1,019 nucleotides of DNA from Naegleria gruberi. Its lineage: Eukaryota. Each line of letters opens with the position of its first letter. Positions within the stretch are counted from its first letter, which is position 1. Location: NCBI GenBank assembly GCA_000004985.1, contig GG739613.1; one strand, 5' to 3'. The notes beneath the pieces were generated by a model. That model saw only the letters and a list, made by a program, of their open reading frames with translations. It did not search any database and was not told the origin of the DNA. Below are positions 1-1,019 of the stretch, one piece after another. The translations under genes were made by a program, and so were the position numbers.

Positions 1-580
1 ATATCAGTTCCACAACTCCAGTGTGTGAATTAATTTTTTCCATAATTTGTTTTTCTCCTATTTCTTCATCGTTTAAGTTGTTTCTATTAAATTTTACCTT
101 CTCGGCCACTTCAATACCATTTAACCAAGCTTTGTACACCCCAAAGCCAAGTACTTCGTCTGTACGAGTTATTGTTGGAACTGTTTCAAAAGTTTTGATT
201 TTTCTTGGTATTAATTGAATATTAGGTAAAGTATGAGCAACCAGTTCAGATGTTGTGTAGATAATGTATTTATCTTCAGGGGAAAATTGAGGTAATTCTA
301 CAAATAATTCCAATAATTGTTCGTGAATAGCTTTTATGGGAGGCCTTTCCTTTGGATCTTGATTAATGCAACGAACACAAATTTCAAACAACTTTTTCGA
401 CATGTCAGAAGTTAAACAGGGGAAATTATGTTGAAGTGTTTCTTCTAACTGGGATACATTGGATTGCAAAGATTTAATAAAATCATGGCCACAAAGAAGT
501 TCAATCATTGTTACACCAAAGCTGTAAACATCAATCTTCGATATTTCAGAATACCCTAAATCATATTTAACTTCTGGGGG
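1..580 (-). CDS. Partial exon continuing the kinase gene. It covers the end of kinase domain 1 (subdomains VIII to XI), a linker, and the start of a second kinase-like N-lobe. The gene continues beyond the left edge of the window.
   Basis: The same frame is open for 193 codons with no stop (PPEVKYDLGYSEISKIDVYSFGVTMIELL...CINQDPKERPPIKAIHEQLLELF...TDEVLGFGVYKAWLNGIEVAEKVKFNRNNLNDEEIGEKQIMEKINSHTGVVELI). Subdomain IX is D-V-Y-S-F-G-V and subdomain XI is DPKERP at plus 341..358. Further on there is a Gly-loop-like LGFGVYKA (plus 128..151), a VAEK lysine motif (plus 98..109) and an alphaC/beta4-like EEIGEKQIMEKINSHTGVVELI. Confidence 0.85.
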
Positions 581-616
581 CTAAAATGGATAGTAAAATA
601 AATCAAAATAACTTAC
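581..616 (-). other. Putative 36-nt spliceosomal intron (GT-AG), in phase 0 and a multiple of 3 long, containing an in-frame TAG.
   Basis: On the minus strand it reads gtaagttattttgatttattttactatccattttag, with a canonical GTAAGT donor and a pyrimidine-rich tract ending TTTTAG. It is more AT-rich than the flanking exons. It carries an in-frame stop (TAG at plus 581..583). Removing it joins GTRLYL to PPEV and recreates the kinase subdomain VIII spacing GT-x-x-Y-x-(A/P)PE. Confidence 0.8.
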
Positions 617-1019
617 CAAATACAGTCGAGTACCAAAGTGTGATGAATTACTTATGTCACCTTCAACAATAAAATCAAAGTCACATAGTTTCACGTCATT
701 AAATAAATTCATACCAGCTATCTCTATCGTGTTAACTAAAATATTTGCTGGCTTAATATCACAATGACTAATATTCATTTTGTGCATAAATGTTAAAGTT
801 TCACTAATTTTCACCTGAGTATATAATATTTGCCACAATTTTCCAAAGTGATTTCTCCCAAAATCTGCTATTTGCGAATGGTTAAGAGAATGATCCATCA
901 ACTCCATGAATATGTGGTTTATGCCATCCTCAGATTCATAATGATGTAATATTTCAACTATACCAGGATGTTCACTGATTTTTTTGTAGAGCTCTAAATC
1001 TATGAAAGCAGTGAAAGCT
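617..1019 (-). CDS. Partial exon of a eukaryotic-type Ser/Thr protein kinase gene (kinase subdomains III to VIII); the 5' end of the gene lies beyond the right edge of the window.
   Basis: Minus-strand frame with codons starting at plus 1018 is open for 134 codons (AFTAFIDLELYKKISEHPGIVEILHHYESEDGINHIFMELMDHSLN...HFGTRLYL). It contains the catalytic loop HCDIKPANILV (plus 743..766, HRDLKPxN-type), the Mg-binding motif DFD (plus 674..682, a DFG variant) and the activation loop GTRLY. The upstream subdomain III/IV-like LELYKKISEHPGIVEIL is in the same frame, so the M at 907 in the ORF track is internal and not the start codon. Confidence 0.9.

What the first reader, a model, noticed from the sequence alone, without database searches (positions are those of the whole stretch)
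674..766. Non-canonical catalytic motifs: HCD (non-RD), DFD and PPE
The catalytic loop is H-C-D-I-K-P-A-N rather than H-R-D-L-K-P-x-N, so this is a non-RD kinase. The Mg-binding motif is D-F-D instead of D-F-G. The subdomain VIII motif is P-P-E instead of A-P-E. The catalytic Asp, the loop Lys/Asn and the first Asp of the DFG motif are all retained, so catalysis is plausible. However, the protein is unlikely to be regulated by activation-loop phosphorylation in the usual RD-kinase manner. Non-RD kinases are over-represented among innate-immune signalling kinases. This combination of variants may help place the protein in a specific lineage-restricted family.
Basis: partly seen in the sequence, partly recalled or inferred. 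Interest (0 to 1): 0.5.

Follow-up and report, generated by a model that had tools for sequence, protein, structure and literature searches.

The report
Divergent non-RD kinase gene, Naegleria
The window is a fragment of a Naegleria gruberi gene for a fast-evolving, species-restricted protein kinase whose regulatory motifs differ from the textbook ones (HCD, DFD, PPE); each variant is already known in other kinases, so this is a mildly unusual member of an ordinary enzyme class.

Summary
All three motifs are real and lie on the minus strand. HCDIKPAN is at 743-766 and DFD at 674-682. PPE is at 572-580, outside the stated range, and joins the frame only after a 36-nt GTAAGT...TAG intron (581-616) is removed. 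The window is the whole 1019-bp scaffold behind Naegleria gruberi EFC35190.1. Its closest relatives are five N. gruberi paralogues at 33-39% identity. All six lack the HRD Arg (C/H/Y/N/Y/Y). Five of six lack the DFG Gly (D/S/D/D/N). Three of five have PPE. So these positions are relaxed across the family, and the combination is not a fixed signature. The catalytic Asp, Lys, Asn and DFx Asp are invariant, which favours an active Ser/Thr kinase. One further deviation is an Asp at the alpha-C Glu position. DFD is known from MNK1/2 and HCD from plant lectin receptor kinases, and PPE recurs in a few unrelated hits. The family leans towards IRAK/TKL-like kinases, but only weakly. The last 95 codons encode the N-lobe of a second family unit in the same frame, so this is a tandem-kinase gene. 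I rate it a new member of a known kind, of low to moderate interest.

The parts
1..1019 (-). Open reading frame across the whole contig, with both ends open. It is part of the N. gruberi gene annotated as EFC35190.1 / XP_002667934.1.
   Evidence: One stop in 339 codons against 19-40 in the other frames. 100% match to P0001, whose contig is 1019 bp.
296..1000 (-). Kinase unit 1, from alpha-C to the end of the C-lobe (subdomains III-XI), interrupted by the intron.
   Evidence: Pfam Pkinase 2e-29. 220 bits against an HMM built from paralogues only, aa 7-229. AF2 pLDDT is mostly above 90.
998..1000 (-). Asp at the alpha-C Glu position of unit 1.
   Evidence: The column is Glu in 106/120 and 51/55 aligned kinases.
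743..766 (-). Catalytic loop HCDIKPAN (non-RD; Ser/Thr-type DxKPxN).
704..727 (-). Family-specific 8-residue insertion (IEIAGMNL) between the catalytic loop and DFD.
   Evidence: An 8-residue gap in MKK6 and IRAK4 alignments. Present in all paralogues. Modelled as a longer beta-hairpin.
674..682 (-). DFD in place of DFG (Mg-binding Asp kept, Gly replaced by Asp).
581..616 (-). 36-nt phase-0 intron, GTAAGT...TTTTAG, holding the only in-frame stop.
   Evidence: Removal restores a gap-free alignment with paralogues. The same splice is used in the annotated model.
572..580 (-). PPE in place of APE (end of the activation segment).
512..532 (-). Subdomain IX DVYSFGV, followed by TMIELLCG. This wording is typical of TKL/RLK-like kinases.
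   Evidence: Consensus DVYSFG in the alignments. That it is TKL-typical is from general knowledge.
2..286 (-). Kinase unit 2: pre-kinase segment plus N-lobe (beta1-beta3, alpha-C, start of beta4), in the same frame as unit 1.
   Evidence: The paralogue-only HMM places positions 3-94 on aa 233-327. The tail scores 29.0 bits against a maximum of 8.7 in 2000 shuffles. AF2 secondary structure is helix, three strands, long helix, at low pLDDT.
140..151 (-). Shortened Gly-rich loop of unit 2. LGFG is followed directly by VYK; four residues, including the third Gly, are missing relative to P0162 and P0163.
   Evidence: Alignment; model.
98..109 (-). VAEK: beta3 strand with the ATP-anchoring Lys of unit 2.
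   Evidence: Aligned with VAEK of P0162 and P0163; coordinates.
53..55 (-). Alpha-C Glu of unit 2.

Best explanation
The window is a fragment of a Naegleria gruberi gene. It encodes at least two tandem protein-kinase units of a small, fast-diverging family found so far only in N. gruberi. Unit 1 carries the finding and is most likely a catalytically competent Ser/Thr kinase. Its catalytic loop is D-I-K-P-A-N and its P+1 loop is G-T-x-x-Y-x-P-P-E, and it keeps the catalytic base, loop Lys and Asn, and the Mg-binding Asp.

Its regulation probably differs from the RD paradigm. There is no Arg to clamp a phosphorylated activation loop, so activity is probably not gated in the classical RD way. By analogy with MNK1/2, the Asp in DFD would favour an autoinhibited DFD-out state that has to be released.

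Across the family the three motif positions vary freely, so they reflect relaxed constraint on regulatory and structural residues, not a selected triple signature.

Shown: the motifs, the intron, family membership, the variability of these positions, and the second unit in frame. Inferred: catalytic activity, the DFD-out tendency, and any cross-regulation between the tandem units.
For: Kinase identity and motif register.

Source and annotation.

Family: five N. gruberi paralogues at 33-39% identity. Against an HMM built from those paralogues only, the window scores 222 bits and the best non-Naegleria protein scores 136 bits.

Motif table: HxD is C/H/Y/N/Y/Y, DFx is D/S/D/D/G/N and xPE is P/P/A/A/P, while D, K, N and the DFx Asp are invariant.

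Open frame and intron.

Second unit.

DFD is compatible with activity and biases towards DFD-out in MNK1/2; the D228G mutant regains both states (PMC3326643).

Unit 1 models confidently as a kinase C-lobe.
Against: Unit 1 has Asp instead of the alpha-C Glu, and its Gly-loop and beta3 Lys lie outside the contig, so activity is unproven.

The free variation at three normally conserved positions, plus degraded Gly-loops in unit 2, P0035 and P0164, would also fit a family drifting towards pseudokinases.

No expression data and no orthologue exist to test for purifying selection.

The contig is only 1019 bp, probably with low read depth.
Confidence: 0.55

Rival explanations
1. Unit 1 is a pseudokinase, a very weak kinase, or a decaying gene copy. 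On this view the motif changes are part of a general loss of constraint in a recently expanded family, and the protein acts as a scaffold or regulatory partner, or not at all.
For: There are four deviations in one domain: non-RD, DFD, PPE and alpha-C Glu to Asp. The same positions vary freely among paralogues, and Gly-loops are degraded in unit 2, P0035 and P0164. Paralogues are only 33-39% identical, and no orthologue was found elsewhere. In tandem-kinase proteins one unit is often a pseudokinase (titles and abstracts; general knowledge for JAKs).
Against: The residues that define pseudokinases are all intact in all six family members: the catalytic Asp, the loop Asn and the DFx Asp. Asp for Glu is conservative. 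The frame is open for 338 codons where about 8% of random codons would be stops. The intron has canonical ends.
Confidence: 0.3
2. The variants, or the tandem junction, are sequencing or assembly artefacts of a tiny unplaced scaffold.
For: The contig is only 1019 bp. Each variant is one nucleotide away from the canonical codon. No second copy of this exact gene exists in any collection searched.
Against: The same kinds of deviation occur in paralogues on scaffolds of 250-380 kb and in an independent metagenome assembly, ERZ929261. Three errors would have to fall exactly on motif codons in an otherwise clean open frame. The two units share only about 40% identity in their overlapping part, so the junction is not a collapsed repeat.
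Confidence: 0.07
3. It is a Naegleria counterpart of IRAK/Pelle/RLK-type non-RD kinases, and of plant tandem-kinase proteins, acting in microbe sensing or defence.
For: With the family profile, IRAK4 is the top solved structure (7.7e-26), and the alignment extends into the IRAK4 N-terminal extension. Plant RLK/RLCKs dominate the profile hits. IRAK4 is the top Foldseek hit. The non-RD state is associated with immune kinases in plants and animals. The gene has a tandem-kinase layout.
Against: The margins are negligible. CDPK, Nek7, MNK2 and MKK5 score 83-93 bits against 94 for IRAK4, and CDK2 ties with IRAK4 by structure. Pfam Pkinase outscores PK_Tyr_Ser-Thr in every member. There is no death domain, LRR or other receptor module, only one ankyrin repeat in two paralogues. 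The hit list is biased by shared words such as HCDIKP. There are no functional data.
Confidence: 0.08

Closest known systems
N. gruberi paralogues D2VMW9 (annotated 'protein kinase'), D2VY37, D2VLR3, D2W6B8 and EFC35393.1
   Same: 33-39% identity over the kinase domain. All are non-RD. They share the 8-residue insertion before DFx, the ELMD.SL and FG.T wording, the pre-kinase segment and the VAEK beta3 strand. Two of them also have DFD and two have PPE.
   Different: They are single-kinase proteins that stop 10-13 residues after the kinase domain, and two carry an N-terminal ankyrin repeat. The window gene instead reads on into a second unit. None has Cys at the HxD position or Asp at the alpha-C Glu position.
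MNK1 / MNK2 (MAP kinase-interacting kinases; CaMK group)
   Same: Active kinases with DFD instead of DFG. MNK2 is among the better PDB matches to the family profile at 88 bits. The crystal structures give a mechanistic precedent: DFD-out autoinhibition, relieved in the D228G mutant.
   Different: MNKs are RD kinases activated by activation-loop phosphorylation, and they have APE and MNK-specific inserts. There is no specific sequence relationship beyond the kinase fold.
Non-RD IRAK/Pelle/RLK kinases, such as plant G-type lectin RLKs (HCDIKPxN), LRK10-like kinases (HYDIKPxN) and EFR
   Same: They have the same catalytic-loop wording, HCDIKPxN or HYDIKPxN, and DVYSFGV..E...G in subdomain IX. IRAK4 is the marginal best hit by both profile and structure.
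   Different: They keep DFG and mostly APE or SPE. They carry receptor or death domains. Group assignment of the Naegleria family is not resolved.
Multi-kinase and tandem-kinase proteins (plant TKPs such as WTK1/Yr15; Selaginella XP_024525978; Ceratodon KAG0608811)
   Same: Two or more kinase units in one polypeptide. The Selaginella and Ceratodon proteins are the best non-Naegleria matches to the family HMM at 136 and 102 bits, and share VAEK and ELMD.DL wording.
   Different: Their units have canonical HRD, DFG and APE. They are far more distant than the N. gruberi paralogues. No shared accessory domains were demonstrated.

Membership tests
Eukaryotic protein kinase superfamily (Pfam PF00069 Pkinase) | Significant match to the Pkinase profile above the gathering score | tested here: met
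   103.3 bits against a cut-off of 31.7, E = 2e-29, profile positions 49-259 of 263.
Eukaryotic protein kinase superfamily (Pfam PF00069 Pkinase) | Catalytic Asp, loop Lys/Asn (HxDxKxxN) and Mg-binding Asp (DFx) | tested here: met
   D87, K89, N92 and D113 are present. These columns are 119-120/120 D, N and D.
Eukaryotic protein kinase superfamily (Pfam PF00069 Pkinase) | Gly-rich loop, beta3 Lys and alpha-C Glu of the same domain | tested here: inconclusive
   For unit 1 the Gly-loop and beta3 Lys lie beyond the contig end, and the alpha-C position holds Asp, not Glu. Unit 2 has the Lys and Glu but a shortened Gly-loop.
Non-RD kinases (functional class) | No Arg immediately before the catalytic Asp | tested here: met
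   H-C-D; codon TGT.
N. gruberi-specific kinase family (D2VMW9, D2VY37, D2VLR3, D2W6B8, EFC35393) | Scores far higher against a profile of these proteins than any outside protein does, and shares their insertion and pre-kinase segment | tested here: met
   222 bits against 136 bits for the best outsider, using an HMM that did not include the window. The 8-residue insertion and the pre-kinase segment align.
TKL group / IRAK-Pelle-RLK family | Clearly better profile or phylogenetic affinity to IRAK/RLK than to other kinase groups | tested here: inconclusive
   IRAK4 is top at 94 bits, but CDPK, Nek7, MNK2, MKK5 and SLK score 83-93 bits. Foldseek ties IRAK4 with CDK2. Pkinase outscores PK_Tyr_Ser-Thr. 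No phylogeny was made.
TKL group / IRAK-Pelle-RLK family | Associated death domain (IRAK/Pelle) or extracellular/transmembrane receptor module (RLK) | tested here: not met
   Pfam finds only one ankyrin repeat plus the kinase domain in the full-length paralogues. The window gene itself is incomplete.
MNK subfamily (DFD kinases) | DFD motif together with CaMK-group affinity, the RD catalytic loop and MNK inserts | tested here: not met
   Only the DFD is shared. The catalytic loop is non-RD, and MNK2 is not the best match.
Tandem-kinase proteins (architecture class) | Two kinase domains in one uninterrupted reading frame | tested here: met
   Two hits to the paralogue HMM in one frame with no stop between them. 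Both units are incomplete in the window, so the full architecture is unknown.
Pseudokinases | Loss of at least one of the beta3 Lys, the catalytic Asp or the DFG Asp | tested here: inconclusive
   The catalytic Asp and the DFx Asp are present. The beta3 Lys of unit 1 is not in the window.

The most novel reading that the evidence does not exclude
N. gruberi may carry a private, rapidly diversifying family of non-RD, IRAK/RLK-like kinases. At least one member would be a tandem kinase, analogous to plant tandem-kinase immune proteins, used by the amoeba to sense or resist bacteria, prey toxins or giant viruses. In that case, non-RD kinase-based innate immunity would extend to Discoba (the eukaryotic supergroup containing Naegleria).
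Probability: 0.06. Interest if true: 0.6.

Novelty: new member of a known kind. Interest (0 to 1): 0.25.

Why it matters
If the reading is right, this is one more example of protist kinomes holding small, species-private kinase families. In such families the catalytic residues stay fixed while the regulatory residues (HRD Arg, DFG Gly, APE Ala, Gly-loop) drift. That is useful for annotating the Naegleria kinome and for work on which kinase residues are truly indispensable.

The practical gains are modest. The annotated model EFC35190.1 is truncated at both ends, and the gene is a tandem kinase. The result does not open a long-standing question, because each motif variant already has well-studied precedents.

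Tried and rejected
(1) Ciliate genetic code. I considered it because of the AT-rich DNA and the single in-frame TAG. I rejected it because all 11 Gln codons are CAA or CAG, and the TAG lies inside a canonical 36-nt intron.

(2) Sequence search of the 98-residue tail alone against Pfam and PDB found nothing. Only the paralogue-derived HMM identified it as an N-lobe.

(3) The top-scoring hits of the exhaustive search are 1000-2900-aa proteins from an oomycete, Tritrichomonas and a fungus. They looked like close relatives but are not. Their scores are sums over several kinase domains, and each domain is only 24-30% identical to the window.

(4) Look-ups of genomic context for P0001, P0025 and P0035 returned nothing. 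Contexts of two paralogues in metagenome ERZ929261 show unrelated neighbours and no kinase array.

(6) The word-index protein searches miss even known paralogues. I therefore rested the claim of absence elsewhere mainly on the exhaustive search.

(7) Kinase-group assignment by PDB profile search and Foldseek gave near-ties and was left open.

(8) Rfam and the repeat scan found nothing else in the window on either strand. The plus-strand ORFs are 65 aa or shorter and have no support.

Full report
**Observation**

The window is 32% G+C. Its only long open frame is frame 1 of the minus strand, with one stop in 339 codons; the other five frames have 19-40 stops. From base composition about 8% of random codons would be stops.

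The single stop is a TAG. It lies inside a 36-nt stretch that starts GTAAGT and ends TTTTAG (+581..616). Removing that stretch keeps the frame and joins GTRLYL to PPEV.

On this strand the motifs sit as follows:
- HCDIKPAN at +743..766.
- DFD at +674..682.
- PPE at +572..580.

The finding's range therefore spans the first two motifs exactly. PPE lies 94 nt outside it and across an intron.

The spliced product matches Pfam Pkinase at E = 2e-29. Against the MKK6 crystal sequence, HRDVKPSN aligns with HCDIKPAN, CDFG with CDFD and MAPE with LPPE.

**Source**

The product is 100% identical to a 215-aa 'predicted protein, partial [Naegleria gruberi]' (EFC35190.1 / XP_002667934.1), whose contig is 1019 bp long. 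The window is therefore that whole scaffold.

The annotated model uses the same intron. However, it starts at an internal Met (MNISHCD...) and stops at ...VAEK. The open frame and the homology continue to both contig ends, so the model is truncated at both ends.

**Relatives**

An exhaustive phmmer search of 1.84 billion cluster representatives gave 54,145 hits. This is expected for a kinase.

The highest total scores belong to 1000-2900-aa proteins with several kinase domains, from an oomycete, Tritrichomonas and a basidiomycete. Their scores are sums over domains, and each domain is only 24-30% identical to the window.

The truly closest proteins are five N. gruberi proteins at 36-38% identity in that search (33-39% in the alignment): D2VLR3, D2VY37, D2VMW9, D2W6B8 and EFC35393.1. 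Near-identical copies of three of them occur in an independent metagenome assembly.

I built an HMM from these five only and scored candidates against it:
- The window scores 222 bits.
- The best outsider, a Selaginella multi-kinase protein, scores 136 bits.
- A Ceratodon (moss) multi-kinase protein scores 102 bits.
- Both outsiders have canonical HRD, DFG and APE.

No orthologue of the window protein or of D2VMW9 was found in any other organism. A scan of JGI metagenomes was also negative.

One caveat applies. The word-index searches miss even known paralogues, so moderately similar orthologues in other Naegleria species are not excluded.

**What the family says about the motifs**

| Member | HxD | DFx | xPE |
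|---|---|---|---|
| Window | HCD | DFD | PPE |
| D2VLR3 | HHD | DFS | PPE |
| D2VY37 | HYD | DFD | APE |
| D2VMW9 | HND | DFD | APE |
| D2W6B8 | HYD | DFG | PPE |
| EFC35393 | HYD | DFN | sequence ends before this motif |

All six members are non-RD, but with four different residues at that position. Five of six lack the DFG Gly, with three different replacements. The APE Ala alternates with Pro.

By contrast, the catalytic Asp, the loop Lys and Asn, and the DFx Asp are invariant.

Among 115 non-family hits the same columns are R in 64, G in 107 and A in 69. HCD occurs 26 times, mostly in plant lectin receptor kinases. DFD occurs twice and PPE six times. This set is enriched for HCDIKP by the way the word index picks candidates.

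The three variants are therefore real. Each has precedents. Within this family they reflect relaxed constraint, not a fixed signature.

That criterion is formally met. The explanation is family-wide relaxation, not sequencing error: paralogues on 250-380-kb scaffolds and in an independent assembly show the same kinds of change.

**Further features of unit 1**

The column that holds the alpha-C Glu in 106 of 120 aligned kinases is Asp here (+998..1000).

The family also shares an 8-residue insertion between the catalytic loop and DFx (IEIAGMNL, +704..727). It shows as a gap in both the MKK6 and IRAK4 alignments and is modelled as a lengthened beta-hairpin.

The Gly-loop and beta3 Lys of unit 1 lie beyond the contig end. 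Catalytic competence therefore cannot be fully judged from the window.

**A second kinase unit**

After the C-terminal helix of unit 1 the paralogues end within 10-13 residues. The window frame instead stays open for another 98 codons; from base composition the chance of that is about 3e-4.

The paralogue-only HMM gives a second hit in the window product. Its profile positions 3-94 (pre-kinase segment, beta1-beta3, alpha-C, start of beta4) align to aa 233-327. The tail scores 29.0 bits, against a maximum of 8.7 in 2000 shuffles.

The last 16 residues also resemble the first part of unit 1. EKQIMEKINSHTGVVELI compares with ELYKKISEHPGIVEIL, and only 3 of 2000 shuffles reach that alignment score. 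The two units share only about 40% identity in this overlapping stretch, so this is not a collapsed repeat.

The AlphaFold2 model gives pLDDT above 90 for most of unit 1. For the tail it gives a helix, three strands and a long helix, which is N-lobe topology, but at low confidence (pLDDT 37-68).

Unit 2 keeps VAEK (+98..109) and the alpha-C Glu (+53..55). Its Gly-loop is shortened: LGFG is followed directly by VYK.

The gene is therefore a tandem kinase with at least two diverged units. Neither unit is complete in the window.

**Classification**

With the family profile, the best solved structure is IRAK4 (7.7e-26, 94 bits). The alignment runs into IRAK4's N-terminal extension. Plant RLK/RLCKs dominate the profile hits, and IRAK4 is also the top Foldseek hit.

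These margins are too small to rely on:
- CDPK, Nek7, MNK2, MKK5, SLK and DLK score 83-93 bits.
- CDK2 ties with IRAK4 structurally.
- Pfam Pkinase outscores PK_Tyr_Ser-Thr in every member.

The full-length paralogues have no death domain or receptor module. Two of them have one ankyrin repeat. I treat 'TKL/IRAK-like' as a lead only.

**Mechanism**

The DIKPAN and GT...PPE wording indicates Ser/Thr specificity. This rests on established knowledge of kinase subdomains VIb and VIII.

Without the HRD Arg, the classical clamp between the catalytic loop and a phosphorylated activation loop is absent. Activation-loop phosphorylation can still matter in non-RD kinases, as shown for EFR (PMC8463890).

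For DFD the relevant precedent is MNK1/2. These are active kinases in which the DFD adopts a DFD-out conformation, with the Phe blocking the ATP pocket. The D228G mutant can adopt both states (PMC3326643). By analogy, unit 1 may rest in an autoinhibited state. This is inference only.

In a tandem protein, one unit may regulate the other. This too is inference.

My estimates are:
- Active but atypically regulated kinase: about 0.55.
- Pseudokinase, or a copy that is decaying: about 0.30.
- IRAK-like immune kinase: about 0.08.
- Sequencing or assembly artefact: about 0.07.

**Verdict**

This is a real but ordinary feature: a divergent member of the protein kinase superfamily in a species-restricted family. 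The individual motif variants are all known elsewhere (non-RD in IRAK/RLK kinases; DFD in MNKs; PPE in a handful of unrelated hits).

The added value of this second look is fourfold: the strand and intron, the family-level view of the motifs, the alpha-C Asp, and the tandem-kinase architecture. I rate it a new member of a known kind, interest about 0.25.

Noticed in passing
window 2-286 (minus strand): The frame continues past the end of kinase unit 1 into the pre-kinase segment and N-lobe of a second, diverged unit of the same family, so the gene is a tandem kinase. Unit 2 has a shortened Gly-rich loop (LGFG directly followed by VYK) but keeps the beta3 Lys (VAEK) and the alpha-C Glu.
   Followed up: yes
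window 998-1000 (minus strand): Unit 1 has Asp at the position where 106 of 120 aligned kinases have the alpha-C Glu. This is a fourth non-canonical position, not listed in the finding.
   Followed up: partly
window 704-727 (minus strand): An 8-residue insertion (IEIAGMNL) lies between the catalytic loop and DFD. All N. gruberi paralogues share it, and MKK6 and IRAK4 lack it. The model shows it as a longer beta-hairpin. It is a better family signature than the motif variants.
   Followed up: partly
window 581-616 (minus strand): A very short (36-nt) phase-0 intron, GTAAGT...TTTTAG, sits inside the activation segment. The paralogue gene in L002 (531-1538) was called as one uninterrupted ORF, so it has no intron at this position.
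   Followed up: partly
window 1-1019; annotated model EFC35190.1: The public gene model starts at an internal Met (MNISHCD) and ends at VAEK. Homology and the open frame extend to both contig ends, so the model is truncated at both ends.
   Followed up: yes
N. gruberi scaffolds of P0001 (1019 bp), P0025 (2072 bp) and P0035 (2161 bp): Three of the six family members lie on tiny unplaced scaffolds. This suggests the family sits in regions that assembled poorly, such as repeated or heterozygous DNA.
   Followed up: no
L001 and L002 (ENA metagenome assembly ERZ929261, run ERR1078381): A sample labelled as a metagenome contains contigs encoding near-identical copies of N. gruberi proteins (P0018, P0163, P0164), so a gruberi-like Naegleria strain is present in it. 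Neighbouring genes are unrelated: one ORF with a zinc-knuckle-like CHRCKKTGH motif and one with no obvious identity, neither run through any search. There is no kinase array.
   Followed up: partly
P0016 (aa 49-79) and P0162 (aa 27-95): Two full-length paralogues carry a single N-terminal ankyrin repeat ahead of the kinase domain. The others do not.
   Followed up: no
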